Notes under the pieces: generated by a model
What the model was told of the DNA's origin: nothing
Database searches by the model: none
Seen by the model: only the letters and a program-made list of their open reading frames with translations
Made by a program: the position numbers and the translations under genes
NCBI GenBank assembly: GCA_041738235.1
Contig: JBGSQF010000012.1
Span: forward strand, 10,363 to 74,362
Length of the DNA: 64,000 nucleotides
Source: Minisyncoccia bacterium
GTDB lineage: Bacteria; Patescibacteriota; Minisyncoccia; Moranbacterales; GCA-2747515
Reading direction: 5' to 3'
Shown here: positions 4,221 to 41,576 of the stretch, in pieces
Layout of the letters: every line of letters begins with the position of its first letter
Numbering within the stretch: the stretch's first letter is position 1

Positions 4221-4242
4221 ATTTGCTATCAAAATACAAACT

Positions 4243-13551: not shown

Positions 13552-13699
13552 ATATTTGTAATTATCTTTTATTATTTATTTTATTCTGTCACATCGACGC
13601 TTACAGGGGGGATGCCCGTGACAGATCTTCTCAAGAAGCGATAGTATCTCCTTGCTCCCCCTGCCCCAAGAGAAGCCTCAGGGCAAGAGGAGTTTGGAT

Positions 13700-23887: not shown

Positions 23888-23891
23888 ATGA

Positions 23892-24719
23892 TCAAAATAT
23901 TTTTCTATAAACTCTAAAAAGATACTCCGTCATGCCTATCGGCAAAGGGAGATATGCAAATAACAAAACACCCAAATTAGCATACAAATCCAGAAATGCT
24001 GGTTTATAATTATATTTTTTGTAAGCACTGTGCCTAACGCTCAAGGTAGCCCTTACGTTCTCCTTAGTCCTTGCCGATGTTATAGAATACTCATGCCTCC
24101 TATACCGTAGCAGAATAGCTTGCACGTTTGCAAAAGAGTAATACTGTCCAATTCGAAAAGTCATATCCAAATCTTCTGCTTGTTTTATATGCTCATCATA
24201 CTTTCCAACTCTATCAAAGACTGTTTTTCGAATCATTGCAACTCCTTGAGAAACAGGCGAATATCGAAAAATTTTCTTTCTTAATTTATCATCAGATCTT
24301 TCATACTTTTGAAGTGCTAAAACCCCTTTTTCATTAAAGAATTGTAACCACCCTCCACAAATACCAACATCTGGGTTTTTCTCCATAAAAGCATATTGCC
24401 TCTCTATTCTATTTACTACAGAAATATCATCAGAATCCTGCCATACCACATATTTTCCCTTTGCCATTGAAACTAACTTGTTTCTATTAATAGGAATTCC
24501 CATATTCTTTTCATTCTTAACGGCGGTAATCCTACTGTCTTGTTTTTCGTATTTCTGAATAATGTTCCATGTCTTATCAGTTGAACAATCGTCAATAATA
24601 ATAAACTCAAAATCCTTGAAGGTTTGATTCAGAATACTTTCGATTGCCTCGGAAATATACTTTTCTGAATTATAGGCGGGCATTAATACCGAGACTTTGG
24701 GCGCATTGAATTCCATCAT
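23892..24719 (-). CDS. glycosyltransferase family 2
   Basis: VSVLMPAYNSEKYISEAIESILNQTFKDFEFIIIDDCSTDKT (GT-A fold with DxD context). Confidence 0.8.
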   Translation of the reverse strand: MMEFNAPKVSVLMPAYNSEKYISEAIESILNQTFKDFEFIIIDDCSTDKTWNIIQKYEKQDSRITAVKNEKNMGIPINRNKLVSMAKGKYVVWQDSDDISVVNRIERQYAFMEKNPDVGICGGWLQFFNEKGVLALQKYERSDDKLRKKIFRYSPVSQGVAMIRKTVFDRVGKYDEHIKQAEDLDMTFRIGQYYSFANVQAILLRYRRHEYSITSARTKENVRATLSVRHSAYKKYNYKPAFLDLYANLGVLLFAYLPLPIGMTEYLFRVYRKIF

Positions 24720-29021: not shown

Positions 29022-30650
29022 TTACTTCTTTACCTTTGGGTCCAAAATTGCATCAATATTGAGCTCCGAAAGATACTCATCTTTGAGCTGATATATATCG
29101 GCAAATGGATAGTGATCCACCAGTTCATACCGAGCAAACCCCGGATTGTCGTGGATGAGACGCCAAGTGGAGTCCTCATTGGAATAACTTCTTACCACGA
29201 TCCAACGCGCCCAATGATCCGGATACTGTATAGCTGCATCGTAATAAGTACCGGTTCCTTCGTGGATAAATCGCTTCATCGGGAGTCCCGAAGAAAAAAT
29301 AATAGAATCGTGTGATGCCGCGGAGATCAGAATAAATCCTTTTTCCGGACCGGCGTGCTTCTGCAACCACCCCGAAACTTCGGATACGTTCTTCTGACTC
29401 GACCCCACTCGAGCGTCATCGATCGTCACGGCGTCACCACTACTGAATTGAAAGAAGGTCGTTAAAAGGAGAAGACCGATCAGTGTGACGCGAAGTGGTG
29501 GAAGTACGTGTATCAGATATCCGACAAAGATCGCAACCGATGGCATCATCATAACACCATAACGCACATTGAACCACGTGTCACCGGAAATTCCCTGAAT
29601 ATAGAGCACGGAGTGACCCAAATACAAAGCCAGGACATTGAACAAAAGCGGCGCAATAAGGGCTACGGTGGCAAGACGGATATGAGCCGGAAGCGACTTC
29701 TTGAACCACAAAACGATCATACCCACAAATCCAAGCACCATACTAAATGCGCCTACATTGTACGCGTACGCGTACATATACATCTTGAGCGAGAAAAACC
29801 ATTGACCCTTGGTCGGCAAAACACCCGCAGCATCCAACTGGTCCTGCTGGTAATGTGCCGAATAGGGCCCGAAGGCGAAATAGAACGGGTCTTTGAAAAT
29901 AAGGGCATTCCACAAAAGCCACAGAAATACACCAAACCCGCCCAATGTAGAGAAAAAAACGAACACGCCTTCCGTATATTTGTAGCCGTTCTTTCGGAAC
30001 AAAAATATCGAGATAAGCACCGCCGAAAAGAAAAGTAAAAACCATCCATCATAGCGCACCAGTGTCGCCAACATAATGAAAAATGCGGCGTAGATAAGTT
30101 GAAGTATGTCTTCTCCCTTGAACCATTTAAGTAAATAATACGATCCAACGGTCATTGTGGAGATAAGCATCAACTCCGTCATCGCTGTGGATTGCAAATA
30201 CAAAACATTCATATTGGAAGCAAAGAGTGCTACCGCAGCAACTCTCCCAGTCATCCCCACGCCCAACTCACGAAGATAGAGATAGATGATCGCTCCAGTG
30301 AGCACGAAAGAAAGCATCGACCATATTGCTCCAGCCAATCCGGAGTGCCACATAAAGTCGCTCCAGATCGTCACACCCATCAAGAGATGCGTCAGTGGAA
30401 GCCACACCGATCCCAACTGAGCAAACCCGGGATTGAGTCCCTCCACCACACGACGACCAATGTCGAGATGCGACCGTGCGTCATTGTACGCGAGTCCGAG
30501 ACCGTTGGCATAGTAGTGCAAGAACGTGTAGACCGATATCCCTGCCAATATCGCAAAGATGAGCACGAGAGCATGTCGTTCAAGAAACGCGGTCAAGCGT
30601 TCACGCAAGTATGTCCAAGAATAAAAAGATTTTGATCGAGTAGTGTTCAT
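29022..30650 (-). CDS. GT-C family membrane glycosyltransferase (ArnT/PMT-like, GT39/GT83-type)
   Basis: Twelve or more TM helices. First loop reads GLAYNDARSHLDIGRRV (DE/DxR-type motif of ArnT/PMT_2). Confidence 0.7.
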   Translation of the reverse strand: MNTTRSKSFYSWTYLRERLTAFLERHALVLIFAILAGISVYTFLHYYANGLGLAYNDARSHLDIGRRVVEGLNPGFAQLGSVWLPLTHLLMGVTIWSDFMWHSGLAGAIWSMLSFVLTGAIIYLYLRELGVGMTGRVAAVALFASNMNVLYLQSTAMTELMLISTMTVGSYYLLKWFKGEDILQLIYAAFFIMLATLVRYDGWFLLFFSAVLISIFLFRKNGYKYTEGVFVFFSTLGGFGVFLWLLWNALIFKDPFYFAFGPYSAHYQQDQLDAAGVLPTKGQWFFSLKMYMYAYAYNVGAFSMVLGFVGMIVLWFKKSLPAHIRLATVALIAPLLFNVLALYLGHSVLYIQGISGDTWFNVRYGVMMMPSVAIFVGYLIHVLPPLRVTLIGLLLLTTFFQFSSGDAVTIDDARVGSSQKNVSEVSGWLQKHAGPEKGFILISAASHDSIIFSSGLPMKRFIHEGTGTYYDAAIQYPDHWARWIVVRSYSNEDSTWRLIHDNPGFARYELVDHYPFADIYQLKDEYLSELNIDAILDPKVKK

Positions 30651-30656
30651 AAACGG

Positions 30657-32264
30657 TTATTTCTTTTCACGACCAATAAAATTAACGGTCAACATACTTG
30701 CACCCAATCCAAGGACCAAAAGATATACCAGTATAAAATATTCCCTTGGGGTCAGTACACCTCGAAACCACACGTCATACAAGTACGATTTCGATCCTAT
30801 CGGACTTCCATACTTTGAATCCAGGAATTCCCAATTTCTAAAATAGGTATACTTTTCTTCATGCCCCGACTGTTTCTCCATCGCAAGCACCTGCACTTTG
30901 GGAGGGTTGGCCATAGAGGTAATCGTACCCAACGTATTGACCGCTCCTGAATAAACAAAAAGTACCGCGAAGAGACCAATAAACCACCATTTTCTATTCC
31001 ACTGAGAAAGCGCCATACCCAATCCGATCGCCAAGACCGCATAGGTAGGAATAAGATAACGAGAACCAAATGCCCAACCACCCCACGGATCACCCCACAT
31101 CGAATACAAAAGGATATTAGCTCCGATGATGGCAGTGAGAAGAGCCACGATCCGCCCCTGTTTACGATACAAGAGCACAAGCCCAAAGATGCCCAACAGC
31201 ATAACGGGCGCAAAGGCGAATACCCCACGATCAGGACTGAGGAAATGAATATAGAAACCGTTGTAAAGATTACGTGTTTCAAAAAAACCAACCGCCGTTT
31301 TGTCACCCTTCATTTCCTGAAGAGAAGCCAGTTGCTCTTGGGTCAATACTTCTTGTTGGTAGGTGCTCTCTTTTTTGGGGTTCCCATACGCGTCGATCTC
31401 AGCAACCCCTTCAAGAGTCCCTGGCAATTGGAACATATTGCCATAGGCTGAATAGTTGTACCAACCAAAGAACGCCAAAGGGATCAAGAATCCTGCAAAG
31501 GTCAGTATGCCAAAAACAAACCTCTTTGACTGTGTCTTTTTCCCTCCTTTGCGAACGATCTCAAACAATCTCACCAGTGCATAGAGCCCCACTGGAAACA
31601 TCAAGAAGAGATTGGGGTTGTCCACAACGATAGATGCTGCACAAGCAAACCATACGATCGCAAGGCTCCATATATTTCGAAAAGAAAACAATGCCCACAA
31701 AGAAACAAGTAACAAAAAAACGCTCACATGATGCTGGTAAAGGCTCACACCATAGGCAAACGCCGGAGAAGCAAAGAGAAATGTAGCCCCTCCCAAAACC
31801 CCCGCGTACCACCTACCGCCGAGCCTCTTCACGATCGACGCTATGAGAAACATATTCATAAAGGCAAACACAGCGATCATGGCATATGTGCCCACTTGCG
31901 AGATCCCAAAGTACTTCCCTATCACATACCCGGGAACGACCAAAAAGGAAACTCCTGGGGCAAACAATGAAACGTATTTCCCCATCGAAGTGATCGCGAG
32001 ATCCGGAACCGCCAAACGTGCGACAGCAACACTAAATGTCAGAGAATGGTTCTCGACGAGCGAATAAAGAAGCGCAAACCGTCCTCGTTCGGGAGAAAGC
32101 TCTAATGGACCATCAAATGACCACGCTGAAGTGTTGAGCTCTTTGATCGTGGGAGTTCCAGGAAGACCGCGAAGGCTTAGGAGCAGGATGATCGCTACTA
32201 CAAGAACTACCAACCCAGAAAGTATAGGGGATGTCCAATTTTTTTGCAGTTTTTTTAGGTCCAT
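30657..32264 (-). CDS. GT-C family membrane glycosyltransferase (ArnT/PMT-like), second copy
   Basis: Polytopic protein with first-loop acidic motif SFDGPLELSPERGRFALLYSL. Confidence 0.7.
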   Translation of the reverse strand: MDLKKLQKNWTSPILSGLVVLVVAIILLLSLRGLPGTPTIKELNTSAWSFDGPLELSPERGRFALLYSLVENHSLTFSVAVARLAVPDLAITSMGKYVSLFAPGVSFLVVPGYVIGKYFGISQVGTYAMIAVFAFMNMFLIASIVKRLGGRWYAGVLGGATFLFASPAFAYGVSLYQHHVSVFLLLVSLWALFSFRNIWSLAIVWFACAASIVVDNPNLFLMFPVGLYALVRLFEIVRKGGKKTQSKRFVFGILTFAGFLIPLAFFGWYNYSAYGNMFQLPGTLEGVAEIDAYGNPKKESTYQQEVLTQEQLASLQEMKGDKTAVGFFETRNLYNGFYIHFLSPDRGVFAFAPVMLLGIFGLVLLYRKQGRIVALLTAIIGANILLYSMWGDPWGGWAFGSRYLIPTYAVLAIGLGMALSQWNRKWWFIGLFAVLFVYSGAVNTLGTITSMANPPKVQVLAMEKQSGHEEKYTYFRNWEFLDSKYGSPIGSKSYLYDVWFRGVLTPREYFILVYLLVLGLGASMLTVNFIGREKK

Positions 32265-32279: not shown

Positions 32280-33053
32280 TCACTTAACATAATATACTTC
32301 GGGCACTTCGGGAATAACATCAGAAAAAAGCGGTTGCGTCGCATACAGTTTGATGAGTGGGTGTTTTACCTTCCCGTTGAGACCAAACTCAACCCGTTGA
32401 AAACCTCGCTCTCTAAAATAGGCATCATTCGGAGTATCGCTGAGACAGTACGGGAAATCCGCGTAGAATACCACATTCTCGGAAAAACGCAATCCCATCT
32501 TACTGGTTATCACATGATCAACATGTTTTCCCAATCCGATCGGAAAAAAAAGTATGTTCTTCGTGTTGGCGTCGATCGATGCCCTGAGAGACTTTTCGAT
32601 CTCATCCATAAGATCATGATCATCCTTGGCGATACGCCCTCTCGTAATATGAAAACGATATGTCGGATACACGTGTACAAATTCCGGAAAGATCTTACCC
32701 AAGATCTTCCCAAGCCATCCCGATCGCTTCTTACGCCATAGAGCATCCTTATATCCTAGATGTGTATACGACGCCTCTAACAACTCCAGCACAGTTTTAT
32801 CCTCCTCTTTTCTCTTGGCAAAAAGTTCTTTCGCATTCTTGATACCACACTGTTTGAGAAACATCTTGGCTGAGAGCGTTTCTTGTCTCCCCTCTCCCGC
32901 CTCAGTGAATATCGTCAAAACGGACATATGCATCTTGCCTGTAAGGTACGACATCAGATTGCCACATGACAAAACCGCGTCATCCAAATGTGGAGAGACG
33001 AAATAGCAGTGCGTATATTTGGCCAACAATTGTTCTAATGCGTTCTCTTTCAT
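32280..33053 (-). CDS. PIG-L/LmbE family deacetylase
   Basis: YFVSPHLDDAVLSCGNLMSYL (PHxDD motif). Confidence 0.8.
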   Translation of the reverse strand: MKENALEQLLAKYTHCYFVSPHLDDAVLSCGNLMSYLTGKMHMSVLTIFTEAGEGRQETLSAKMFLKQCGIKNAKELFAKRKEEDKTVLELLEASYTHLGYKDALWRKKRSGWLGKILGKIFPEFVHVYPTYRFHITRGRIAKDDHDLMDEIEKSLRASIDANTKNILFFPIGLGKHVDHVITSKMGLRFSENVVFYADFPYCLSDTPNDAYFRERGFQRVEFGLNGKVKHPLIKLYATQPLFSDVIPEVPEVYYVK

Positions 33054-33054
33054 A

Positions 33055-35115
33055 TCACCTCTTTTGAGTTATCACATCCGTTATGAATTGCTCGTATTCC
33101 TTCGCTATAGAATCCCAATCATATTTTTCAGCATATAGTCGAGCTTGCTGTGCTGTCTTCTGATACAATTTGCTACTCTGCATAGGCTTCAAAACAGCGT
33201 TGGCCATAGCGTCTACATCAAAGCTTGGCACACGAATGATCGCATCGTTAGAAGTGATCCACTGAAGCCCTGGAATATCAAAAGCCACAGTAGGAACACC
33301 ATAGGACATCATCTCCAGCGCCACAAGAGAAAACGTCTCAAACCGAGAAGGTAATAAGCAAGCGATCGTTTCGCGAAAGAAGTTCTCTTTCTCTTGAGCG
33401 TTGATCCGTCCCAGCAGATGAACGGAGTCACCAAGCTCGTGCAATTCTATAAGCTTCTTCACACGGGCCATCTCGGTCTCCGTGCCCACCCCGGCAATGA
33501 CCAGCGGAACTGCCATGGTCTCCGAGATCTTTTTGTAGGCTTTGAGCAAAAGGTCAATGCCCTTTTGATCCACTTCAATGCGCCCAATGTAGGACAAGTG
33601 CTTCCCCACCCGCTCCCCATTCAATGTGGGCATATATACACCATTGGGGATTATTTTTATCTCCGCAGAATGGTTGTGGGCGATAACTTCCTCGGCGCTT
33701 GTCTTGGTCACCACGATAAAATGACGGTAGAATTTCAAACCAAAGTTCTCGATCCAATGGAAAGGGAGATGATATTTTCGCACCATATCTTGAGCACTGA
33801 GCATATGCACAAGCGCGACCACCGGTTTTTTGGTGAATACTGGAGTAAATGAAGTAGAAAATGGCGGTGTAAAACTCTCTATCCATATGTCGTAATCCAA
33901 AAACATCACGTACCAAGGAAGAGTCAAATGATACAGTAACTGACCGATCTGTCCTCCAAACATCGAAAAACCAATACGACGATAGTGCACACCGTTCCTT
34001 TCTTCATTTTTTGCTCCGGGATATTTGCCCGTAAGAACGGTCACGTTGAACTCATGAGACAGACGACGAGCTATTTCATGTACGGCCACAGCGCCTCCGC
34101 CAGCATAATGCGGGTTCTCCACATCGTCATAGTTCGATACGATAATGTTCTTTTTATTGAGAGATCCGTTGAGTGACTTGGTAGATTGCACCGTTTCCCA
34201 TGTACCACTATCTTTATCCTCGTGCGCATCTCGGATCATCAGCATGCGAACGATGGGAAGTGTACAACAATAGATCGTCACCCAAAAGGGATTGCGGATC
34301 CAAGATTGAACGAGTGCAAAAAACTTCTGTGCGAGTCCTATATTATAATACTGTGCAACAAATGCCGGATCAAATTCCTTGGCCTGTATTCTCTCTGATT
34401 TGAGGAATCGTTGCATCTGTTTTATGTAATCGGAAAAATTCGATGGCAGTCTATATCGAACGAGTGCCTTTTCGGCAACTTTGAACTTAAATCCTCTGGA
34501 CTCACCAAAAAGGAACGAGAAGGCTTCATCTGCGGATGCATCAGGAAACCGCAATACTTCGTACATCTCCCGACGAAATGCCCTTATCCTTCCCTCAGAT
34601 CGATAGAGATAAGAAACTCGAGGAGCGCGTCGCACGTACTCCCAGGTGATCGCACCCGCATGGGCCACTCTCTCAGCAAATGTCCTCGGTTTGAGTGAGA
34701 GGGCATAACCAGAAGTATGCACAACCTCTTCCTCCTCCAAAAGCGGCGCCAGGAGTTCATAAAGAAGATCCTTTCCTTCCACATAAATATCTGCATCTAG
34801 GATCACGATCACATCGGATGTGGCATTTTGCATAAGTTCGTTCATACGAGCGAACTTTCCACACCTCTTCCCATCCGCCATCAACTTAAAACGAGGGTGA
34901 TCTTTGCAAAATTCTCGGACGATCTTATCTGTACCATCAGAAGAACCGTCTGAAACAACTATCACTTCATCAATAGTAAAACCGGTCTCTTCTTGGTCCT
35001 GAAGCACTTCTAAAAGATACCCCGTATTGCGTTCCTCATTGTACGCGGGGATACCTATGGTCACAGAAAGTTTTTTCTCTTCCGCAGATCGATCTTGCGT
35101 CGCTGTTGCTTGCAT
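33055..35115 (-). CDS. bifunctional glycosyltransferase: N-terminal GT2 fused to C-terminal GT1 (GT4)
   Basis: N-terminus LSVTIGIPAYNEERNTGYLLEVL...VIVVSDGSSDGT...LDADIYV. C-terminus LLPSRFETFSLVALEMMSYGVPTVAFDIPGL. Confidence 0.8.
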   Translation of the reverse strand: MQATATQDRSAEEKKLSVTIGIPAYNEERNTGYLLEVLQDQEETGFTIDEVIVVSDGSSDGTDKIVREFCKDHPRFKLMADGKRCGKFARMNELMQNATSDVIVILDADIYVEGKDLLYELLAPLLEEEEVVHTSGYALSLKPRTFAERVAHAGAITWEYVRRAPRVSYLYRSEGRIRAFRREMYEVLRFPDASADEAFSFLFGESRGFKFKVAEKALVRYRLPSNFSDYIKQMQRFLKSERIQAKEFDPAFVAQYYNIGLAQKFFALVQSWIRNPFWVTIYCCTLPIVRMLMIRDAHEDKDSGTWETVQSTKSLNGSLNKKNIIVSNYDDVENPHYAGGGAVAVHEIARRLSHEFNVTVLTGKYPGAKNEERNGVHYRRIGFSMFGGQIGQLLYHLTLPWYVMFLDYDIWIESFTPPFSTSFTPVFTKKPVVALVHMLSAQDMVRKYHLPFHWIENFGLKFYRHFIVVTKTSAEEVIAHNHSAEIKIIPNGVYMPTLNGERVGKHLSYIGRIEVDQKGIDLLLKAYKKISETMAVPLVIAGVGTETEMARVKKLIELHELGDSVHLLGRINAQEKENFFRETIACLLPSRFETFSLVALEMMSYGVPTVAFDIPGLQWITSNDAIIRVPSFDVDAMANAVLKPMQSSKLYQKTAQQARLYAEKYDWDSIAKEYEQFITDVITQKR

Positions 35116-35134
35116 ACGGTTGTTTCCGATTTAC

Positions 35135-36694
35135 TTATCCATTATGTTCACTTTTCACCAAACGCTCTCTCAACCCTTCGAGAAATTCGTGTTTTCTCCG
35201 TTCGTATTCCCGAAAGGACTTTCCGTTACACTCGAGTTTCAACTGTTCATACTCCTGTTTCAACTTTTCATCATTTTGAATAGCCCACACTACCGATGAC
35301 TGATCTTTGAACTTTTCCGTGGTCGGATCGATCAGAAGTATATCTATTTCCCAACCATCTCGCTTTGTTTGCCATTCTATATAATCCCGCTTCTTCCGAA
35401 CCGGCTTGCCAAAAAGAGAAGAGATATCCTCAATATGAGATGAAAAGTCAGTCGCCCTACACTCAATAAAAATATCGATATCCCGGCGACCAGCAATACC
35501 CATACTCACCGACCCAAGCAAATGAATGGGAAATTGTTCCGACATCACAGAACGAATATCCTTTATGACCAGATCTGTCATTTCCAACCCCTTAGGATCA
35601 AATGGTTCGATCTTTATTTTCTTGGTGGACGAATACATCAAGATATAGATCTCTTGTTTAAATCTTTTCCATAACGAACGAACTTTTTCACAGAATACAG
35701 AGGTGTTTCCCCCATCAAGCTGACTTGAGAGAAAGTCTATGACCATCATAGGATCCCGCCCAGATCTCAAACTCAGATTATAGAGAGCTAAATGCGCTGA
35801 CAGTGCTAAAAACTCTTTTCGTGAACATTCTTTGGCCAGAAGCTCTTTCATATATACCGACTCGAGAAATTTCTTGCCAAAATTGGGGTCTTCCCAAGTC
35901 TTCAACGCTATACTCACAGCATCAAATAACGGATGTGTAAGCACCGCAAGCTGGAAATCAATGATCCAAACATCATCACCTCGCGCAAGGATGTTCCAGC
36001 CCCCAAGGTCACGATGGGAAAAACTCACACCTGCCTTAAATAAACAAGGGATTCGCCTCATATACGCTATCGCCGAACGAAAGATGAAAACGATGCATGA
36101 TGGATGCCTAAGAAGGGCACGCGCAAAAATTATTGGAAATAAGATCACAGTGTGCCATGCTGTTCGATGAGAAATTGATACTAATCGTTTTCCCTTTATA
36201 TATTTCCCCAGGAATGCAAGGTATCCTAACACTTGCGCGTATGTCTCAAGTCTTTTTTCTTCGGGAAATTCAATAAGTGGTTTACTTTCTTCCAGACATT
36301 CAATAAGAAGGATCAGACTCTTCTTATCCTCAACTTCATCAATAAATCTTGGAATGTGTATATGCGGAAATTTCTCCGTGACCTCAGGATGCGCCCTAAG
36401 AGTCTCTTGCAGTACCCGGTAGACCGAGATCTCATTAGCCAGGGAATACCAAGGAAGGGAGTGTTTTTTCCCGATCCATTGCTTGGCTATTGCTTTCTCT
36501 CCCGATCCATTTTTGTAGATACCGTATCGGTATGTTTTACTGCTTCTCTGTGGGAAGAATTCCTTCACAAAAACATACTCACCGATCCTATTCGGAAAAA
36601 TGGTCAAAGAAGTTGCTGAACTTCTTCTGTGCTTCGTGTCCAAGAACACATCTATGATCGTTTTTAATCCTATGCAGATCGGATCTTTTTTCAT
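35135..36694 (-). CDS. fusion of an APH/choline-kinase-like phosphotransferase domain and a GrpB-family nucleotidyltransferase-fold domain
   Basis: Kinase motifs HRDLGGWNIL and VWIIDFQ. C-terminal HLLGSVSMGIAGRRDIDIFIE...IDILLIDP matches GrpB (UPF0157). Confidence 0.6.
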   Translation of the reverse strand: MKKDPICIGLKTIIDVFLDTKHRRSSATSLTIFPNRIGEYVFVKEFFPQRSSKTYRYGIYKNGSGEKAIAKQWIGKKHSLPWYSLANEISVYRVLQETLRAHPEVTEKFPHIHIPRFIDEVEDKKSLILLIECLEESKPLIEFPEEKRLETYAQVLGYLAFLGKYIKGKRLVSISHRTAWHTVILFPIIFARALLRHPSCIVFIFRSAIAYMRRIPCLFKAGVSFSHRDLGGWNILARGDDVWIIDFQLAVLTHPLFDAVSIALKTWEDPNFGKKFLESVYMKELLAKECSRKEFLALSAHLALYNLSLRSGRDPMMVIDFLSSQLDGGNTSVFCEKVRSLWKRFKQEIYILMYSSTKKIKIEPFDPKGLEMTDLVIKDIRSVMSEQFPIHLLGSVSMGIAGRRDIDIFIECRATDFSSHIEDISSLFGKPVRKKRDYIEWQTKRDGWEIDILLIDPTTEKFKDQSSVVWAIQNDEKLKQEYEQLKLECNGKSFREYERRKHEFLEGLRERLVKSEHNG

Positions 36695-36710: not shown

Positions 36711-39700
36711 TTATTTATGTCCCCTCACGATACATCCAAGAAAATTCTTACTCGTTTCCGCCCAGGTAAAGTTACTCGCCCACACTCGAGCCTTTTCAGA
36801 CATTCCCTCACGCAATTCCTTATCACGAATGATAAGTAGTATCTTCTCAGCAAATCCCCGAATGTCACCATAAGGCACCAAATATCCAGTGTTTTTGTCT
36901 CGCACCGAATCACGAAGCCCAGGAACATCGGAAGCGATCACAGGAGTACCACAAGCATTCGCCTCAATAGCAACAATTCCCCAACCTTCCATAAATGAAG
37001 GATTCACAAGCACCCAAGAACTCTGCAAAAGCCGAACCTTTTCTTCATTATCAACTTGTCCAGTAAATTGGATCCGGTCTATAGGGATCTGCAGTTCACC
37101 GGCTAGTTTTTTTAAACGACGCTCCTCTTCTCCGCTTCCCGCAATGATGAGTTGCGCGTCCGGTCGCTCCCGAAGTACGATGCGAAAAGCATTGATCAAA
37201 ACATCCACTGACTTGTAGCTTTTGAGACGTCCCAAATAGAGGACAACCGGGGAAGAGGTTTTTTCAACGAGTATCTCTGAAAGGGTCGCTGGATCAACGC
37301 CTGGATGTACAACGGTGATCCCTCTCTTTCCCAATCCAAGCTCTTTCATCTCACGCTTGCTCGATTCTGAAACTGTGATGAACTTTATCTTCTTATAAAA
37401 GAAAGGCATAATATCTTTTTCGAGAGTACTTGCCAACCAAGCAAGTGGTTGGATCAATGATCGATGAAAAACATTTTGATGCACATGATGCAAAAGACAA
37501 AATATTGGCTCGCGTACATATATTGGTGTAAAGAATGGGATACCATTTTCACAATCGATCACAACATCATACTTTCCACGAAATCGAAAAATATAGTAAA
37601 AGAATGCCCACACATAGACAAGATAAAATCCTCCTCGACGGATCACTTGCACATCATCCACCATCTCGTGACGTTTCTCCCGTCCATCATTTCCACAAAA
37701 AAGCGTGACATAATTTCCCTCCTTGACCCACTCTTTGGCTATTTCGTGGACATAGACCTCGGCTCCGCCGGCAAATTTATGCTCCGTATCGCGCCAGTTA
37801 AAGATCAAAATATGCTTCTTTCCTACGGCCAACTTGGGTAGATCATCAGAAAATCCATTGGAAAAGACCCCCAAAAGATCACGCCCGGCACGATGGAGAA
37901 ATCTCAGATCATCGTAGAGGAAATGGAGTACGGTCAGAAGCATCCACCCAACAATGCTCACAATAAATATTACATGCACGATATCTTCCAATGATCCATG
38001 TGAGATCATTATTCCTCCAACCAAACCCAACGAGAGAATAAAGCTCAAGAGAGAAAATGCATAGTGACGTTTCGCCAGATGATAAGAAACGGTAACTCCC
38101 GAAAGGGTAAATATGCCCAATGCCACCGTATACGGGAGAAGCATATGAACGATGGCTCGCGCTTTCTCTCCAAAAAGGAACGGAGCGGTATACGATCCAA
38201 ATACCCCCAAAAGAAGGACCCCGCACACAACGACCGCGAATACCACACTATACACCAAGTACAGGATCTTATTGGTCTTCAACTTCAGTCCTTCATTCCG
38301 ACTCACAAACGTTATGGTGAATGAGTTGGGGAGCGATCCGAGAAAATAGATCATTTTCCCAATGATCGCTATAAGTGCATACTGCCCTGCTTGCACCGGA
38401 TCAAGGTAATGATTGGCCAAAAAGATATCTACACTCAAAAATATTACTACTGAAAGATTCACTATGACGGTCGAGGAAAAAAAGGAATTGGGGAATGGCT
38501 CTACCGAATCCGTTTCTTGATATTCTTTTTTCTTTGCCGTCCAGAGTACTACAAGATATGACAATACTCCTGTGACAGCAATGGCAAGTGGGATCGAAAG
38601 ATAAACCCAACCAGAAAGTCCCAATAGAACCAGTAGCCCAGCGATACCAAACTTAATGATCGCCTCACCCACAAAAAGCAATGCAACCGAAGAGAAGTGG
38701 TAGACCCCTTGCAATAGTCCCCGACTTCCAGCCGCAAGCATTCCCAACGTAAAGATCGGAGTAAAAAGGATGAGCGGGAGAATATCACTCAAGTTAAAGA
38801 ATTTTGCAATAAACGGTGCTCCTACGACCCAGAAAAACGACACCACGAGAGAGATCTCGATCGCCAACCCCATCGTTTTTTTGAAAAAAGCGTTCACCGC
38901 ACCATAGCCCTTGGAAGGATAAAGATACGCAGCCCTATGGTTCATGGTCAAAGAAAAGGCGCTCACCACAACAGAAGCAAGAAACCACAGCGTATTGATC
39001 AATGTTACCAACGCAAGATCTTCAAACCTCAACACCCTCCCCAAAAATGCATTGAACAAAAAGTTAATGAAGTTGGAAAACACCAATGCCCCCATAAAGA
39101 ATCCCTTGCTCGAGAAAATAAAATTATATAAGGATTCTGGCATAATGCGTCGAAGCCAAGCGATCAACGCGATTGGACGCACCCTGGATCGAGATCCCTT
39201 TTTGGTCGGTCTACTAACAAGTTTCTTTTGAGTTTCTTGAACTTGACTCACCTGAGGGGTGGTTTCTGCAACAACTTTCTGACCCATCTCAGAAACAGCC
39301 TCTTGGGTAGGTTGCTGAACTTCTTTGACTTGGGCAGGAAGAGTCTTCAGAAATAAAGGTTTTCTTATATCAAAAAATCGACGTCCTGGTTTTCGATTCA
39401 AATGGAGTCCATGCGTGGTCTTCTGCCAATAATGTGGCTTAACAAGAAGTTCATAAAGGGCGATCGATGCTGCAATACTTCCAAGTATCCAGTACAAAGG
39501 CACCAAAAAAACATATTTGATAAGGTCCCAGTGCCCTCGTTTGGCACACCCGATCATGTAATAGTAGATATAAAGGAAATTCCCGAATACCATCGATACT
39601 GCCGCCATATAGAAAACCCAGGTGGGAAACAGTTCCTGGATCGTTGGACCCACATAAGCGTACAGCGTGAAGTACGCGATAGTCGTGATCCAAAGGATCG

Positions 39701-41576
39701 GGTTGATGAAAAGAAAGGCGATCTTTCCTCCAACCACCAACTGAAAGATAAGAGCGTGCAGTCCATTCTCACGAAAGAAAGCGATAGGATCTCGCATATG
39801 AACAAGATAGGTCTGCATATACCCCTTGATCCAACGAGAGCGCTGTCGCAGCCAGTTCTTGATATGACTATTTGCCTCTTCTAGTGTCACAGAATCGATG
39901 ACCGCCGTTCTTCCTCCCCGCTTAAAAAGACGCATACCGAGATCACAGTCCTCCGTTACATTGAATGGGTCCCATCCTTCGAAGGCGAGCAGATCGCTTC
40001 GACGGAAGTGGTTACTTGTGCCCCCAAGTGGGATAGAAGTATTGGCAGTCTGAAGTCCTACCAAGACGATATCAAACCACAACGAATACTCCGCTGTAAA
40101 AAATCGGGTCAATAGATTGTCATTTGGATTGAAGTAGTTGAGCTTGGCCTGTAAACACTGAACCTCGGGACCTAATTTTTGAAATCCCAGAAAAGCCTTA
40201 CGGAGCTGCCACGGATCCGGTATGTCCTCAGCGTCGTAGATCACTACATACTCCCCACGAGCAAGAGAGAGTCCATAGTTGCATGCCTTCGGTTTCGTTT
40301 TCGGCATTGAGTGAGGAACGACCACTATGCGAAAATGGTCAGGAAGTTTCATTGATCTTGCGGCTACGATCGTTTCAGGATCATTCTCCTCAAGAAGCAA
40401 AAGTACATCGAGTTTATCTTTCGGCCATTCTATCTTATCAATAGCTGCAACAAATCCCGGCAAGATATGTGCTTCTCTGTATAACGGACAGAGTATGGAA
40501 TATATGGGCAGATCCTTGTCTGACACGGATCTCAGTTCCTCTTCCGTGCTTTCGATCTCGGGAGGAGTTTTTAAGCTCTTAAGCACCAACCCCAGATTAA
40601 ACACAACATCAATAAAATACACTATGCTCAGAAACGCTATGACTACAATACCGGTTTGTATGGGATCCAGCATCAGCCCCACCACTAAAGCGATGAAAAA
40701 TAGTATCCCAAAATTTCGTTGCCACGGAGCAAATGTATGGAGTGCCGAATGCTTATGATGTAAGGTAGTATGCGTGATAAAACGAGATTTGTTGTGCGCA
40801 ACCCCTGCCCCGATCATACGCTCTGTGGACTCCGGATGGATGAGCAGTGGCGGACGTCCTTTAAATCGAAGCTTGAGAGCGTTCCACCCGATCTCTGTAA
40901 CTGCCTTAAAGAAATGTATCTTTGACTCGCCCTTGAACCGTTCAGCAAAAGATATGGTCACGCCCCCGATCACGTATCCGTAATTCCTCGCCGAAAGAAG
41001 AAATTCAAGATCGAATGTCCACGGTGTTGGGTCGAGTACAACCTCTCGAATGATCTTTTTTCGGAATGCCTTCATACCTGATTGCACATCACAATCAAGT
41101 CCGTGTAAAAATTTACCAAAGAACAAACTAAATCCCCGACTGAGTATCTTTCGCAAAAGTGTTGTTTCTTTTTCCTTGCGATTGCCTACCACAATATCCG
41201 CTTTTCCCTCAGAGAGCATAGTGACCATTTCCGGCAACGCTTCCGGAGGATATTGGAGATCAGCATCCAACATCGCAATATAGGGATACTGTGCATACGA
41301 AAATCCCTCCAAAAGCGAATATGCTTTTCCAGGTTTCCCTTGCTTGACATAAACCGAAACATTGGCATATTCCAATGCCATTCGATTTATCTCACCTACT
41401 GTCCCGTCTTGAGAATGATCGTCTATGAAGATGGCCTCCCAGACAATATCTGAATCCTCAAGTGAACGCGCGATTCTTCGGATGAGTGGCTCGACACTCT
41501 CCCTTTCATTGAGCGTTGGTATCACGACAGATATCTTTCTTTTCTGTGTGTTTGGATCCACTACCACACTTTTCAT
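36711..41576 (-). CDS. 1621-aa multidomain glycosyltransferase: GT2 (DPM1-like) + processive GT2 synthase (QxxRW) + about 12-TM transporter-like region + C-terminal GT4
   Basis: aa 10-230: ISVVIPTLNERE...FIDDHSQDGT...LDADLQYP. aa 345-600: YDAEDIPD...TEDCDLG...RQRSRW. aa 760-1210: polytopic. aa 1225-1621: EGWGIVAIEANACGTPVIASDVPGLRD. Confidence 0.8.
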   Translation of the reverse strand: MKSVVVDPNTQKRKISVVIPTLNERESVEPLIRRIARSLEDSDIVWEAIFIDDHSQDGTVGEINRMALEYANVSVYVKQGKPGKAYSLLEGFSYAQYPYIAMLDADLQYPPEALPEMVTMLSEGKADIVVGNRKEKETTLLRKILSRGFSLFFGKFLHGLDCDVQSGMKAFRKKIIREVVLDPTPWTFDLEFLLSARNYGYVIGGVTISFAERFKGESKIHFFKAVTEIGWNALKLRFKGRPPLLIHPESTERMIGAGVAHNKSRFITHTTLHHKHSALHTFAPWQRNFGILFFIALVVGLMLDPIQTGIVVIAFLSIVYFIDVVFNLGLVLKSLKTPPEIESTEEELRSVSDKDLPIYSILCPLYREAHILPGFVAAIDKIEWPKDKLDVLLLLEENDPETIVAARSMKLPDHFRIVVVPHSMPKTKPKACNYGLSLARGEYVVIYDAEDIPDPWQLRKAFLGFQKLGPEVQCLQAKLNYFNPNDNLLTRFFTAEYSLWFDIVLVGLQTANTSIPLGGTSNHFRRSDLLAFEGWDPFNVTEDCDLGMRLFKRGGRTAVIDSVTLEEANSHIKNWLRQRSRWIKGYMQTYLVHMRDPIAFFRENGLHALIFQLVVGGKIAFLFINPILWITTIAYFTLYAYVGPTIQELFPTWVFYMAAVSMVFGNFLYIYYYMIGCAKRGHWDLIKYVFLVPLYWILGSIAASIALYELLVKPHYWQKTTHGLHLNRKPGRRFFDIRKPLFLKTLPAQVKEVQQPTQEAVSEMGQKVVAETTPQVSQVQETQKKLVSRPTKKGSRSRVRPIALIAWLRRIMPESLYNFIFSSKGFFMGALVFSNFINFLFNAFLGRVLRFEDLALVTLINTLWFLASVVVSAFSLTMNHRAAYLYPSKGYGAVNAFFKKTMGLAIEISLVVSFFWVVGAPFIAKFFNLSDILPLILFTPIFTLGMLAAGSRGLLQGVYHFSSVALLFVGEAIIKFGIAGLLVLLGLSGWVYLSIPLAIAVTGVLSYLVVLWTAKKKEYQETDSVEPFPNSFFSSTVIVNLSVVIFLSVDIFLANHYLDPVQAGQYALIAIIGKMIYFLGSLPNSFTITFVSRNEGLKLKTNKILYLVYSVVFAVVVCGVLLLGVFGSYTAPFLFGEKARAIVHMLLPYTVALGIFTLSGVTVSYHLAKRHYAFSLLSFILSLGLVGGIMISHGSLEDIVHVIFIVSIVGWMLLTVLHFLYDDLRFLHRAGRDLLGVFSNGFSDDLPKLAVGKKHILIFNWRDTEHKFAGGAEVYVHEIAKEWVKEGNYVTLFCGNDGREKRHEMVDDVQVIRRGGFYLVYVWAFFYYIFRFRGKYDVVIDCENGIPFFTPIYVREPIFCLLHHVHQNVFHRSLIQPLAWLASTLEKDIMPFFYKKIKFITVSESSKREMKELGLGKRGITVVHPGVDPATLSEILVEKTSSPVVLYLGRLKSYKSVDVLINAFRIVLRERPDAQLIIAGSGEEERRLKKLAGELQIPIDRIQFTGQVDNEEKVRLLQSSWVLVNPSFMEGWGIVAIEANACGTPVIASDVPGLRDSVRDKNTGYLVPYGDIRGFAEKILLIIRDKELREGMSEKARVWASNFTWAETSKNFLGCIVRGHK

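What the first reader, a model, noticed from the sequence alone, without database searches (positions are those of the whole stretch)
36711..41576. 1621-aa single-polypeptide glycan factory: GT2 + processive GT2 synthase + 12-TM transporter-like module + GT4
One ORF concatenates four modules:
- a DPM1-like GT2;
- a cellulose/chitin/hyaluronan-synthase-like GT2 with D, DxD, TED and QRSRW motifs;
- a long polytopic region with no catalytic motifs, possibly a flippase or translocation channel;
- a complete GT4 (EX7E).

Such a fusion could prime, polymerise, export and decorate a polysaccharide in one protein. The same locus also carries a separate GT2-GT4 fusion (33055..35115).
Basis: partly seen in the sequence, partly recalled or inferred. 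Interest (0 to 1): 0.65.

Follow-up and report, generated by a model that had tools for sequence, protein, structure and literature searches.

The report
Four-enzyme glycan-assembly fusion protein of Patescibacteria
One real 1621-residue membrane protein joins a lipid-sugar donor synthase, a cellulose/hyaluronan-synthase-like polymerase, a Wzx-type flippase and a fourth glycosyltransferase; it is conserved with two unnamed membrane partners across the uncultivated Patescibacteria and probably builds a still unknown cell-surface glycan.

Summary
ORF 36711..41576 (minus strand, 1621 aa) holds four modules:
- M1: a DPMS/ArnC/GtrB-type polyprenyl-phosphate glycosyltransferase.
- M2: a membrane-embedded processive GT2 with invariant DAED, TED and QRSRW motifs, whose fold matches hyaluronan and cellulose synthases.
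- A roughly 90-residue unconserved linker.
- M3: a 12-helix MOP/Wzx-type flippase.
- M4: a GT4 with the EX7E motif.

It is not an assembly chimera. More than 100 full-length homologues (49-73% identity) exist, and at least 590 GTDB species genomes carry relatives. The same modules also occur split or recombined at the module borders.

New here: two divergent GT-C-like membrane proteins and a membrane-anchored exo-protein follow it on the same strand in most related loci. In Ktedonobacteria the M2-type synthase is fused directly to the GT-C-like partner, which is annotated PMT_2 there.

Best reading:
- M2 polymerises and exports a backbone.
- M1 makes a lipid-linked sugar.
- M3 flips that sugar.
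- The GT-C partners transfer it outside the cell.
- M4 adds a sugar in the cytoplasm.

Folds and linkage are shown. Substrates, product and order of steps are inferred. I class it as a new variant of known kinds. I found no description of it in the papers searched.

The parts
40569..41576 (-). M1, residues 1-336. A polyprenyl-phosphate glycosyltransferase-like GT2: GT-A core (14-210), amphipathic juxtamembrane helix (222-239), beta-hairpin (244-267) and a two-helix membrane hairpin (284-336). Motifs DDHS 52-55 and DADLQYPPE 104-112.
   Evidence: - Pfam Glycos_transf_2, E 9e-36.
- PDB sequence hits: DPMS 5mlz (2e-37 with the family profile), ArnC, GtrB.
- Foldseek: ArnC 9asc, E 3e-14, rmsd 3.1 A over 226 columns, 29% identity; also DPMS and GtrB.
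- AF2 model pLDDT 87.5.
39393..40559 (-). M2, residues 340-728. A membrane-integrated processive GT2 synthase-like module. Motifs: D399, DAED 448-451, TED 541-543, QRSRW 578-582 (interface helix 572-593). Hydrophobic helices 606-637, 652-679 and 683-712. Invariant terminal motif P714-HYW-x-KT-x-HGL 724.
   Evidence: - Pfam Glyco_tranf_2_3 and Glyco_trans_2_3.
- NCBIfam best hits CelA, PgaC/IcaA and the XrtG-associated GT, all below the curated cut-offs.
- Foldseek: hyaluronan synthases 7sp7 and 8smn (475-535 columns) and BcsA 9b8v, 5ej1, 4p00 (about 450-464 columns, rmsd 6-7 A).
- It is the most conserved part of the protein (0.73-0.88 column identity), including its helices.
39132..39392 (-). 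Linker, residues about 729-815. Hydrophilic, K/R-rich, unconserved and variable in length. It is the natural break point between the M1-M2 and M3-M4 halves.
   Evidence: - Column conservation 0-0.17.
- pLDDT below 50.
- Adjacent-ORF splits occur at this position in at least 7 genomes.
37857..39131 (-). M3, residues about 816-1240. A 12-helix transporter of the MOP superfamily, Wzx/PST type (lipid-linked sugar flippase). Invariant polar or charged residues: N838, K975, D1050, H1056, K1074.
   Evidence: - AF2 pLDDT 93.2, pTM 0.90, 12 long helices.
- Foldseek: PfMATE 6hfb E 1e-7, WzxE 9g95/9g9m TM-score 0.70-0.75, MurJ 9ukv TM-score 0.73.
- The window's own PF01943 protein matches this module in other genomes at 22-29% identity.
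- The closest stand-alone relative, P0241, passes the Pfam Polysacc_synt_3 and Polysacc_synt cut-offs.
- Invariant residues.
36711..37856 (-). M4, residues 1241-1621 plus the stop codon. A GT4 (GT-B, retaining) glycosyltransferase with the EX7E motif at 1530-1538.
   Evidence: - Pfam Glycos_transf_1, 154 bits, plus Glyco_transf_4.
- NCBIfam best hits MshA and BshA, below the cut-offs.
- PDB profile hits Tll1590, PimA, MshA, BshA.
30657..32264 (-). mem535. A conserved downstream partner: a polytopic membrane protein and a candidate GT-C glycosyltransferase.
   Evidence: - Present downstream on the same strand in 49 of 79 related loci.
- NCBIfam LA_3751/LA_3752 putative GT, E 1.5e-12, below the cut-off.
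- Weak PMT_2, PMT and TMEM260 hits in family members.
- hhalign against the mem542 family: probability 86%, E 4.7e-6.
29022..30650 (-). mem542. The tightest partner: a polytopic membrane protein with an outside C-terminal domain and a candidate GT-C (PMT_2-like) glycosyltransferase. Invariant first-loop motif Y55-N-D57-A-R-S..D63..RR..E70.
   Evidence: - Present in 55 of 79 loci at about 59% identity.
- More than 3000 homologues, all 'hypothetical' and without a Pfam domain.
- Lies immediately after M2 where M2 stands alone, and is fused to M1-M2 in L069.
- Ktedonobacteria M2 fusions with this domain carry PF13231 PMT_2.
- Invariant residues.
27728..29002 (-). CPDreg_424. The third conserved partner: an N-terminal membrane anchor, an unassigned outside domain with invariant E164 and G-E261-F-G, and a C-terminal CarboxypepD_reg beta-sandwich. 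Possibly a glycoside hydrolase.
   Evidence: - Present in 30 of 79 loci at about 51% identity, directly after mem542.
- CarboxypepD_reg in 11 of 16 family members.
- Glyco_hydro_cc only weakly, in 2 of 16 members, E 0.008.
32280..36694 (-). Variable accessory genes between the large protein and the partners: an APH+GrpB fusion (35135..36694), a GT2-GT4 fusion (33055..35115) and a PIG-L family deacetylase (32280..33053).
   Evidence: - Pfam assignments.
- Present in only some related loci, for example PIG-L in 11 and APH/GrpB in 8.

Best explanation
This is a genuine four-module inner-membrane enzyme. Together with the downstream GT-C-like proteins mem535 and mem542, it assembles a surface glycan by combining two known routes.

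Proposed steps
1. M2 polymerises a beta-linked backbone from a nucleotide sugar and threads it through the membrane, as hyaluronan and cellulose synthases do.
2. M1 loads a sugar onto polyprenyl phosphate at the cytoplasmic face.
3. M3, the Wzx-type flippase, moves that lipid-linked sugar to the outer face. M4, the GT4 fused to it, may first add a second sugar.
4. The GT-C partners transfer the flipped sugar to the emerging polymer, or to another envelope acceptor.

M4 otherwise acts as a cytoplasmic alpha-glycosyltransferase that makes a primer or anchor.

What is shown: the ORF, the four folds, the conserved catalytic motifs, and the phylum-wide conservation and genetic linkage of all parts.

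What is inferred: every activity, the sugars involved, the acceptor and the order of steps.
For: Folds and motifs
- establish the four folds and their motifs.
- Catalytic residues of M1, M2 and M4 are invariant in 117 homologues. So are polar and aromatic residues inside the M2 helices, and charged residues inside the M3 helices.

Linkage of the four modules
- The modules occur fused, or split as '12|34', '1|234', '124 + 3', or M2 alone. The breaks fall only at module borders.
- M3 relatives are often fused to GT4 or GT2 domains.

Linkage to the GT-C-like partners
- Of 23 four-module loci with at least 12 kb of downstream sequence, 21 carry both mem535 and mem542.
- A mem542-like gene starts within about 100 nt of the M2 stop wherever M2 or M1-M2 stands alone.
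- L069 encodes M1-M2-mem542 as a single 1544-aa ORF (BLASTP E 4e-74).
- Hundreds of Ktedonobacteria proteins are M2 (50% identical to this one) fused to this domain, which is annotated PMT_2 there.

Precedent
- The trio of a polyprenyl-P glycosyltransferase, a flippase and a GT-C is the established three-component glycosylation scheme (PMC11127046).
- A Wzx-type flippase is proposed in that role for GacI/GacK/GacL (bioRxiv 10.1101/180810) and for AglD/AglR/AglS (PMC3871713).

Gating-loop-like motif
- The invariant W717-x-K-T720-x-H722-G follows the last M2 helix. It has the spacing of the FxVTxK gating-loop motif, and the same position after the last interface or membrane helix as FxVTxK and WGTR/KG in known synthases (PMC9934533).
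Against: - No biochemical data exist for any family member.
- GT-C membership of mem535 and mem542 rests on weak or indirect hits. No structure was predicted for them, and there are no PDB sequence hits.
- M2 topology is unresolved. Three hydrophobic helices follow the catalytic domain, yet an even number of crossings is needed. M2 also lacks the final helix pair of BcsA and HAS, so a complete channel is not demonstrated.
- The natural halves are M1-M2 and M3-M4. M1 and M3 are therefore not the most tightly fused pair.
- M4's role is the least constrained.
- No c-di-GMP or other regulatory domain was found.
Confidence: 0.5

Rival explanations
1. A single lipid-linked route, like archaeal Agl glycosylation. 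M1 puts the first sugar on polyprenyl monophosphate. M4, M2 and the accessory GT2 and GT4 enzymes extend it in the cytoplasm. M3 flips the finished lipid-linked glycan. The GT-C partners transfer it as a block to a protein (S-layer or pilin), to the wall or to a lipid. In this view M2 is an ordinary membrane-anchored elongating GT2, not a translocating synthase.
For: - The best NCBIfam hit of M1 is AglJ, which adds the first sugar to dolichyl phosphate (PMC3871713).
- No phosphoglycosyl transferase was found among the window ORFs of at least 150 aa that were scanned, as expected for a monophosphate-linked route.
- MOP-GT4 and MOP-GT2 fusions are common in this flippase subfamily, which suggests that sugar addition is coupled to flipping.
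- Two GT-C-like proteins are conserved downstream.
Against: - M2 has the full processive-synthase signature (TED, QRSRW), a gating-loop-like motif and strongly conserved polar and aromatic residues in its helices. Its best fold matches are translocating synthases over 450-535 columns.
- M2 and the GT-C partner occur together without M1, M3 or M4 in many genomes.
- The GT-C hits are to PMT_2-type sugar transferases, not to oligosaccharyltransferases or ligases.
Confidence: 0.2
2. A lipoglycan or glycolipid factory, following the logic of mycobacterial PIM/LM/LAM or GPI synthesis. M4 (PimA/MshA-like) glycosylates a membrane lipid in the cytoplasm, with PIG-L deacetylating it in some genomes. M3 flips the glycolipid. 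M1 supplies polyprenyl-P-sugar for GT-C-driven extension outside. M2 adds a processive chain.
For: - M4's closest solved relatives include PimA, PimB', MshA and BshA.
- A PIG-L family deacetylase lies in the locus and in 11 related loci.
- A DPM1-like enzyme plus GT-C enzymes is the scheme used for LM/LAM and GPI extension (established knowledge of those pathways).
Against: - GT4 similarity is generic: all hits fall below the family cut-offs.
- PIG-L is in a minority of loci.
- This reading does not explain why M2 and the GT-C partner are the most tightly linked pair.
Confidence: 0.15
3. The modules work independently. In this view they are fused only for co-expression in a streamlined genome, with no mechanistic coupling between them.
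For: - The linker is unconserved and disordered.
- Each module also exists as a separate gene in some genomes.
Against: - The same set of modules and partners stays together in dozens of lineages across the Parcubacteria, Microgenomates and Saccharibacteria groups, despite repeated splitting and refusion.
- An alternative fusion, M2 to GT-C, exists in another phylum.
Confidence: 0.1
4. An assembly or annotation artefact: a bridged frameshift or chimeric contig that joins separate genes.
For: None beyond the unusual length. A few related genomes do have the gene split at the linker.
Against: - There are more than 100 full-length homologues from independent assemblies, at 49-73% identity and 99% coverage.
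- Intact ORFs of 1500-1757 aa occur in at least 27 GTDB genomes.
- There is no stop codon in the window ORF.
Confidence: 0.01

Closest known systems
Three-component extracytoplasmic glycosylation systems (GtrA/GtrB/GtrC; CsbB/GtcA/YfhO; GacI/GacK/GacL; AglD/AglR/AglS)
   Same: - They use a GtrB/DPM1-type GT2 that charges polyprenyl phosphate, a flippase, and a GT-C enzyme that transfers the sugar outside.
- Here M1, M3 and mem535/mem542 fill those three roles.
- A Wzx-type flippase is also proposed for GacK and AglR (10.1101/180810; PMC3871713; PMC11127046).
   Different: - Here the first two components are domains of a single polypeptide that also carries a processive synthase and a GT4.
- The GT-C candidates belong to a family with no Pfam model.
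- No activity has been shown.
Membrane-integrated processive GT2 synthases (bacterial cellulose synthase BcsA, class I hyaluronan synthase, chitin synthase, PgaC/NodC)
   Same: - GT-A core with D, DxD, TED and Q(R/Q)xRW on an interface helix.
- An N-terminal helix pair and C-terminal helices.
- A gating-loop-like motif.
- Best fold matches over 450-535 columns.
   Different: - Only 13-20% identity.
- No PilZ or other c-di-GMP domain.
- It lacks the last helix pair after the gating-loop-like motif, and its topology parity is unresolved.
- It is fused to three other modules.
- It is genetically tied to a GT-C-like protein, which no characterised synthase system is.
Wzx/PST flippases of the MOP superfamily (WzxE, MurJ, TacF, AglR)
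   Same: - A 12-helix MOP fold with TM-score about 0.7 to WzxE and MurJ.
- Sequence homology to PF01943 and PF13440 proteins.
   Different: - The window module itself passes no Pfam or NCBIfam cut-off.
- It is embedded between a synthase and a GT4.
- No phosphoglycosyl transferase or Wzy polymerase was found in the locus, so it is not a classic Wzx/Wzy pathway.
M2-PMT_2 fusion proteins of Ktedonobacteria (for example P0392, 1269 aa, annotated only 'glycosyltransferase')
   Same: - The synthase module is 50% identical over 465 residues, including the terminal KPHYWEKTxHG motif.
- Their C-terminal domain is homologous to the window's mem542.
   Different: - In those proteins the synthase is fused to the GT-C-like partner, and mostly lacks M1, M3 and M4.
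- They are also uncharacterised.

Membership tests
Polyprenyl-phosphate glycosyltransferases (DPMS / GtrB / ArnC, GT2) | GT-A fold with a DxD metal site in the family motif D-A-D-L-Q | tested here: met
   - DADLQYPPE at residues 104-112, nearly invariant.
- The family profile hits DPMS 5mlz at 2e-37.
- Foldseek matches ArnC, DPMS and GtrB at rmsd about 3 A.
Polyprenyl-phosphate glycosyltransferases (DPMS / GtrB / ArnC, GT2) | Amphipathic juxtamembrane helix plus a C-terminal transmembrane hairpin that places the active site at the membrane | tested here: met
   In the AF2 model, helix 222-239 has a hydrophobic moment of 0.34, and two hydrophobic helices span 284-336.
Polyprenyl-phosphate glycosyltransferases (DPMS / GtrB / ArnC, GT2) | Transfers a sugar from a nucleotide sugar to polyprenyl phosphate | not testable with these tools
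   This needs an enzyme assay. All NCBIfam equivalog hits fall below the curated cut-offs.
Processive membrane-integrated GT2 synthases (BcsA / HAS / CHS / PgaC) | D, DxD, TED and Q(R/Q)xRW motifs | tested here: met
   D399, DAED 448-451, TED 541-543 and QRSRW 578-582 are all invariant in 59 to 117 homologues.
Processive membrane-integrated GT2 synthases (BcsA / HAS / CHS / PgaC) | Transmembrane helices that form a glycan-conducting channel above the active site | tested here: inconclusive
   - The fold aligns with HAS and BcsA, including the membrane parts, and the helices are highly conserved.
Processive membrane-integrated GT2 synthases (BcsA / HAS / CHS / PgaC) | Cytosolic gating loop with FxVTxK or WGT(R/K)G | tested here: inconclusive
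   An invariant W717-Q-K-T720-T-H722-G723 follows the last helix. It resembles both motifs (PMC9934533) but is identical to neither.
Bacterial cellulose synthase BcsA specifically | C-terminal PilZ domain (c-di-GMP control) and a BcsB partner | tested here: not met
   No PilZ hit in Pfam. No BcsB-like neighbour. The CelA NCBIfam score is 66 bits against a cut-off of 699.
MOP superfamily, PST/Wzx flippases | 12 transmembrane helices in two six-helix lobes (MOP fold) | tested here: met
   The AF2 model has pLDDT 93 and 12 long helices. Foldseek TM-scores are 0.65-0.78 to MATE, WzxE and MurJ over about 440 columns.
MOP superfamily, PST/Wzx flippases | Sequence membership in PF01943 or PF13440 | tested here: inconclusive
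   - The window module scores only MatE at 23.1 bits, below the 24.9 cut-off.
- Its closest stand-alone relative, P0241 (38% identity), passes both PST models.
- The window's own PF01943 protein aligns to this module in other genomes.
GT4 retaining glycosyltransferases | Two-Rossmann GT-B architecture with the EX7E motif | tested here: met
   Glyco_transf_4 plus Glycos_transf_1 at 154 bits against a 26.4 cut-off. EGWGIVAIE at 1530-1538, invariant.
Three-component extracytoplasmic glycosylation system | A GT-C fold transferase that uses the flipped polyprenyl-P-sugar | tested here: inconclusive
   - mem535 and mem542 are polytopic, with an acidic first-loop motif.
- They give weak PMT_2, PMT and TMEM260 hits.
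- Homologous domains in Ktedonobacteria fusions carry PF13231.
Wzx/Wzy-dependent polysaccharide pathway | An initiating phosphoglycosyl transferase and a Wzy polymerase in the locus | tested here: not met
   No PF02397 or PF00953 protein, and no recognisable Wzy, was found among the window ORFs of at least 150 aa that were scanned. Such genes could lie elsewhere in the genome.

The most novel reading that the evidence does not exclude
The large protein and the Pfam-less mem542 and mem535 family may form the core machine, conserved across the phylum, for a so-far undescribed envelope glycopolymer of Patescibacteria. In this reading a truncated HAS/BcsA-type synthase, which lacks the usual last helix pair, works in physical complex with a GT-C enzyme and a Wzx-type domain. 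Backbone export, flipping of the lipid-linked donor and outside branching would then be coupled in a single assembly. The M2 to GT-C coupling shared with Ktedonobacteria would define a new class of synthase-dependent pathway.
Probability: 0.2. Interest if true: 0.85.

Novelty: new variant of a known kind. Interest (0 to 1): 0.62.

Why it matters
- Patescibacteria (CPR) make up a large share of bacterial diversity. They live attached to other cells, and the chemistry of their surface is essentially unknown.
- This protein and its partners are among the few large envelope-biosynthesis systems conserved across the Parcubacteria, Microgenomates and Saccharibacteria groups. The partner mem542 is 62-76% identical across lineages and has no family assignment.
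- If the proposed mechanism holds, it names the enzymes for a major CPR surface glycan. It also gives mutable targets in cultivable Saccharibacteria.
- It would show a new way to couple a processive synthase to GT-C-dependent decoration. The M2 to GT-C fusions in Ktedonobacteria support that coupling independently.
- The natural fusion would be a compact system for structural study of how a flippase, a lipid-sugar synthase and a polymerase cooperate.

Tried and rejected
Searches that found nothing
- PDB sequence searches with M3, mem542 (single sequence and profile) and CPDreg_424 gave nothing usable.
- NCBIfam gave no hit for M3, mem542 or the 444-aa Wzx.
- Pfam gave nothing for mem535 or mem542 as single sequences, even at E up to 10.
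- Seven full-text searches on Patescibacteria/CPR/Saccharibacteria glycosyltransferases, fusions, flippases and GT2 to GT-C fusions found no description of this family. The one paper with all the terms (PMC12419801) concerns other proteins.

Tools not available or limited
- Model coordinates are not exposed, so M2 topology could not be read from the model.

Not informative
- The promoter and terminator scan was not above chance. One sigma-70-like site lies 60-90 nt upstream of the start.

Readings considered and rejected
- Assembly chimera: rejected on conservation.
- A drug-efflux MATE role for M3: rejected on its homology to PST proteins and its context.
- BcsA membership: rejected because there is no PilZ or BcsB and the score is far below the cut-off.
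- A classic Wzx/Wzy pathway: rejected because no phosphoglycosyl transferase or Wzy was found.
Full report
**1. The observation**

The window contains a single ATG-initiated ORF at 36711..41576 on the minus strand. It encodes 1621 aa and has no internal stop.

Pfam places the following on it:
- Glycos_transf_2 at residues 16-178.
- Glyco_tranf_2_3 and Glyco_trans_2_3 at 359-640.
- Glyco_transf_4 plus Glycos_transf_1 at 1270-1598.
- A sub-threshold MatE hit at 830-936.

The separate GT2-GT4 fusion at 33055..35115 is also real.

**2. Not a chimera**

A search of 5.8 billion proteins returned more than 100 full-length homologues. They are 1545-1730 aa long, 49-73% identical at 99% coverage, and all have the same domain content. 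They come from independent NCBI, JGI, ENA and Logan assemblies. Where they are named, the name is only 'glycosyltransferase', from Moranbacteria, Niyogibacteria, Falkowbacteria or Parcubacteria.

They span the Parcubacteria group, the Microgenomates group (Levyi-, Davies-), Dojkabacteria, Doudnabacteria and Saccharibacteria. Labels such as 'uncultured Gammaproteobacteria' on some automated MAG records were not verified.

The closest named relative is a Moranbacteria MAG at 67% identity (L024), so the window probably comes from that lineage.

**3. Anatomy**

A MAFFT alignment of 117 full-length proteins gives the conservation of each part:

| Part | Residues | Column identity |
|---|---|---|
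| M2 (most conserved) | 360-720 | 0.73-0.88, helices included |
| M1 | 1-240 | moderate |
| M4 (GT4) | 1250-1621 | moderate |
| M3 | 820-1225 | lower, 0.3-0.69 |
| Linker | 722-815 | essentially none; variable length |

AlphaFold2 with a 59-sequence alignment gave two confident models:
- Residues 1-780: pLDDT 87.5, pTM 0.84, disordered after 728.
- Residues 800-1250: pLDDT 93.2, pTM 0.90, twelve long helices.

**4. M1**

- By sequence, its closest solved relatives are dolichyl-phosphate mannose synthase 5mlz (2e-37 with the family profile), ArnC and GtrB.
- By fold, it superposes on ArnC, DPMS and GtrB at about 3 A over roughly 226 columns, at 26-29% identity.
- It has the family's DADLQ motif, an amphipathic juxtamembrane helix (222-239) and a two-helix membrane hairpin (284-336).
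- It therefore works like a polyprenyl-phosphate sugar synthase. No curated NCBIfam model is passed, so the sugar is unknown.

**5. M2**

- The best fold matches are Chlorella-virus and Xenopus hyaluronan synthases (475-535 aligned columns) and BcsA (about 450-464 columns, rmsd 6-7 A, 17-20% identity).
- NCBIfam gives sub-threshold hits to CelA, PgaC/IcaA and an XrtG-associated GT.
- D399, DAED, TED and QRSRW are invariant. So are many polar and aromatic residues in the helices: Q612, K618, N625, P626, W629, Y635, N666, Y673, W696. This is expected of a glycan-contacting membrane part and not of a passive anchor.
- Directly after the last helix lies an invariant P-HYW-x-KT-x-HGL (714-724). Its [F/W]-x-x-T-x-[K/H] spacing matches the BcsA/CesA gating-loop motif FxVTxK, and it resembles the WGT(R/K)G motif of HAS and CHS. 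In known synthases the gating loop follows interface helix 3 on the cytosolic side (PMC9934533). This similarity is an inference, not a test.
- There is no PilZ domain.

**6. An unresolved point in M2**

After the catalytic core there are three hydrophobic, non-amphipathic helices: 606-637, 652-679 and 683-712. Both loops that flank the last helix are K/R-rich.

M3 has 12 helices and M4 needs cytoplasmic nucleotide sugars, so the linker must be cytoplasmic. The M1-M2-mem542 fusion in L069 requires the same (section 10). An even number of membrane crossings is therefore needed.

Either one helix is re-entrant or interface-like, or helix 606-637 is a hairpin. M2 also ends where BcsA and HAS still have a final helix pair.

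**7. M3**

- The fold matches MOP-superfamily transporters end to end: PfMATE (E 1e-7), WzxE (TM-score 0.70-0.75) and MurJ (0.72-0.73).
- The window's own stand-alone PF01943 protein (25751..27085) aligns by tblastn to this module of homologues in about 50 genomes, at 22-29% identity and coverage 0.7-0.98.
- An exhaustive HMMER search of 1.84 billion representatives found 131 clusters at E<=1e-30 and 503 at E<=1e-10.
- The best hits are stand-alone proteins of about 420 aa. One of them, P0241, passes the Pfam Polysacc_synt_3 and Polysacc_synt cut-offs. Others are MOP-GT4, MOP-GT2, MOP-GT4-GT2, MOP-GT4-GNAT and synthase-MOP-GT4 fusions.
- M3 keeps invariant charged or polar residues in its helices: N838, K975, D1050, H1056, K1074.
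- It is a Wzx/PST-type flippase module, not a drug exporter.

**8. M4**

M4 is a standard GT4. Its nearest relatives are MshA, BshA, PimA, PimB' and a sucrose-phosphate synthase, all at sub-family level only.

**9. Modularity**

Among 79 related loci the arrangements are:
- All four modules in one ORF: the commonest form, in at least 27 loci.
- '12 | 34' as adjacent ORFs that break in the linker: at least 7 loci.
- '1 | 234'.
- '124', with M3 encoded separately.
- '234'.
- M2 alone, 505-531 aa.

Breaks fall only at the module borders. This is the classic pattern of functionally linked proteins.

**10. Surroundings**

The gene heads a tightly packed run of genes on the minus strand. Most gaps are at most 20 nt, and the largest are 68 and 134 nt. 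The run reads:
- APH+GrpB
- GT2-GT4
- PIG-L deacetylase
- mem535
- mem542
- CPDreg_424
- YdjM
- a Wzx/PST protein
- GT2
- GT2
- GT4
- two large unassigned proteins in a low-GC stretch

. An epimerase and a GT2 lie divergently upstream. No phosphoglycosyl transferase was found among the window ORFs of at least 150 aa that were scanned.

Across related loci the accessory glycosyltransferases vary, but mem535, mem542 and CPDreg_424 recur downstream, on the same strand and in the same order:

| Partner | Loci (of 79) | Identity |
|---|---|---|
| mem535 | 49 | about 42% |
| mem542 | 55 | about 59% |
| CPDreg_424 | 30 | about 51% |

Where at least 12 kb of downstream sequence is available, 21 of 23 four-module loci have both membrane proteins.

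**11. The partners**

- mem542 has more than 3000 homologues. All are 'hypothetical', none has a Pfam domain, and they are 62-76% identical.
- mem535 and mem542 are remote homologues of each other (hhalign probability 86%, E 4.7e-6).
- Both are polytopic. Each has a K/R-rich N-terminus and a first outside loop with conserved acidic and basic residues (Y-N-D57-A-R-S-H-L-D63 in mem542). mem542 also has a soluble C-terminal domain.
- Individual family members give weak hits to PMT_2, PMT, TMEM260-like and DUF2079, all of the GT-C clan.

The decisive link is genetic:
- Where M2 or M1-M2 stands alone, a mem542-like gene starts 14-100 nt after it. This holds for L056, L066, L071, L072, L075 and for both tandem copies in L057.
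- L069 encodes M1-M2-mem542 as one 1544-aa ORF (32% identity over 492 residues, E 4e-74).
- Searching with that region found 712 proteins, mostly from Ktedonobacteria and mostly 1100-1480 aa long. They combine an M2-type synthase with this domain, which is annotated PF13231 (PMT_2) there.
- In one of these proteins (P0392) the synthase part is 50% identical to the window's M2 over 465 residues, including the terminal motif.

CPDreg_424 is membrane-anchored. It has an unassigned outside domain with invariant E164 and GE261FG, only a weak Glyco_hydro_cc hint, and a CarboxypepD_reg sandwich. It may be a glycan hydrolase of the kind that accompanies synthase systems, but this is not established.

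**12. Mechanism**

The parts fit two established schemes at once.

The first is synthase-dependent polymerisation and export, carried out by M2. The second is the three-component extracytoplasmic glycosylation scheme: a polyprenyl-P sugar synthase, a flippase and a GT-C (PMC11127046). A Wzx-type flippase has been proposed in that role for GacI/GacK/GacL (10.1101/180810) and for AglD/AglR/AglS (PMC3871713). Here M1, M3 and mem535/mem542 fill those roles.

I therefore propose:
- M2 makes and exports a backbone.
- M1 and M3 deliver a lipid-linked sugar to the outer face.
- The GT-C partners transfer that sugar to the nascent chain or to another envelope acceptor.
- M4, which stays fused to M3 when the gene splits, either adds a second sugar to the lipid-linked donor before flipping or makes a primer or anchor.

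Folds, motifs, conservation and linkage are shown. Activities, sugars, the acceptor and the order of steps are inferred. My confidence in the overall scheme is about 0.5.

The main rivals are:
- A single lipid-linked route like the archaeal Agl pathway, in which M2 is only an elongating enzyme (0.2).
- A lipoglycan scheme like PIM/LAM or GPI (0.15).
- Independent modules fused only for co-expression (0.1).
- An artefact (0.01).

**13. Comparison and novelty**

Every module belongs to a known superfamily, so this is not a new kind of chemistry. Three things are new:
- The four-module fusion and its conservation across Patescibacteria.
- Its fixed association with a large, highly conserved, Pfam-less GT-C-like family.
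- The independent M2 to GT-C fusion in Ktedonobacteria, which points to a so-far undescribed coupling between a processive synthase and a GT-C enzyme.

No curated family model is passed by M1, M2 or M3. Seven full-text searches found no description. I class it as a new variant of known kinds, with interest 0.62.

Noticed in passing
window 29022..30650 (-), with relatives in loci L001-L079: mem542 is a 542-aa polytopic membrane protein with more than 3000 homologues. They are 62-76% identical, all are annotated 'hypothetical', and none has a Pfam domain. It is better conserved than the large glycosyltransferase it accompanies. It looks like a divergent PMT_2-type GT-C.
   Followed up: partly
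L069 8800..13434 (contig JBJKSJ010000048.1, labelled a Ktedonobacterales MAG); proteins P0390-P0509: In Ktedonobacteria (Chloroflexota), hundreds of proteins of 1100-1480 aa fuse an M2-type synthase to a mem542-like PMT_2 domain. The synthase part of one (P0392) is 50% identical to the window's M2. L069 also carries M1. This synthase to GT-C fusion appears to be undescribed.
   Followed up: partly
window 27728..29002 (-): A membrane-anchored 424-aa protein is conserved directly after mem542 in 30 of 79 loci. It has an unassigned outside domain (invariant E164 and G-E261-F-G, with only a weak Glyco_hydro_cc hint) followed by a CarboxypepD_reg beta-sandwich. It may be a glycan hydrolase.
   Followed up: partly
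window 39393..39785 (-), residues 597-728 of the large protein: Topology puzzle. Three hydrophobic helices follow the M2 catalytic core, but an even number of membrane crossings is required. Both loops around the last helix are K/R-rich. M2 ends at an invariant gating-loop-like motif (W-x-K-T-x-H-G) without the final helix pair seen in BcsA and HAS.
   Followed up: partly
window 18015..24000: G+C drops to 31-36% here, against about 44% elsewhere. The stretch covers the distal genes of the operon: a GT4, a 732-aa protein with about 11 helices and no Pfam hit, and an 841-aa membrane-anchored protein with two internal repeats of about 90 residues (…SFE(N/S)GLWQ(K/E)(E/K)PGDCS…FDYKNI…YYY(K/N)L). 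None of the three recurs in the related loci, so this may be a variable, laterally acquired part of the glycan locus.
   Followed up: no
window 35135..36694 (-): A 519-aa fusion of an aminoglycoside-phosphotransferase-like kinase domain with a GrpB domain lies immediately downstream of the large gene. It recurs in 8 related loci. Its role in a glycan locus is unexplained.
   Followed up: no
window 12221..14383 (-): Two TasA/camelysin-like (Peptidase_M73) proteins lie next to a signal-peptidase S26 (SipW-like) gene. This is the gene set for TasA-type fibres. Two M23 peptidases lie nearby (7682..9697, which also has a CARDB domain, and 10638..11315).
   Followed up: no
window 25751..27085 (-): The same operon holds a second, stand-alone Wzx/PST flippase (PF01943) that is homologous to module M3. 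The locus therefore has two MOP flippases, and possibly two lipid-linked substrates.
   Followed up: partly
window 3561..5139 (+): A DUF1295 / steroid-reductase-like membrane protein (E 1.5e-67) is followed by a 298-aa protein with a Hint (intein-like) domain.
   Followed up: no
related loci L057, L006, L056: Some genomes carry extra copies of the M1-M2 or M2 unit. L057 has two tandem M1-M2 genes, each followed by its own mem542-like gene. This suggests duplication of the synthase to GT-C pair as a unit.
   Followed up: no
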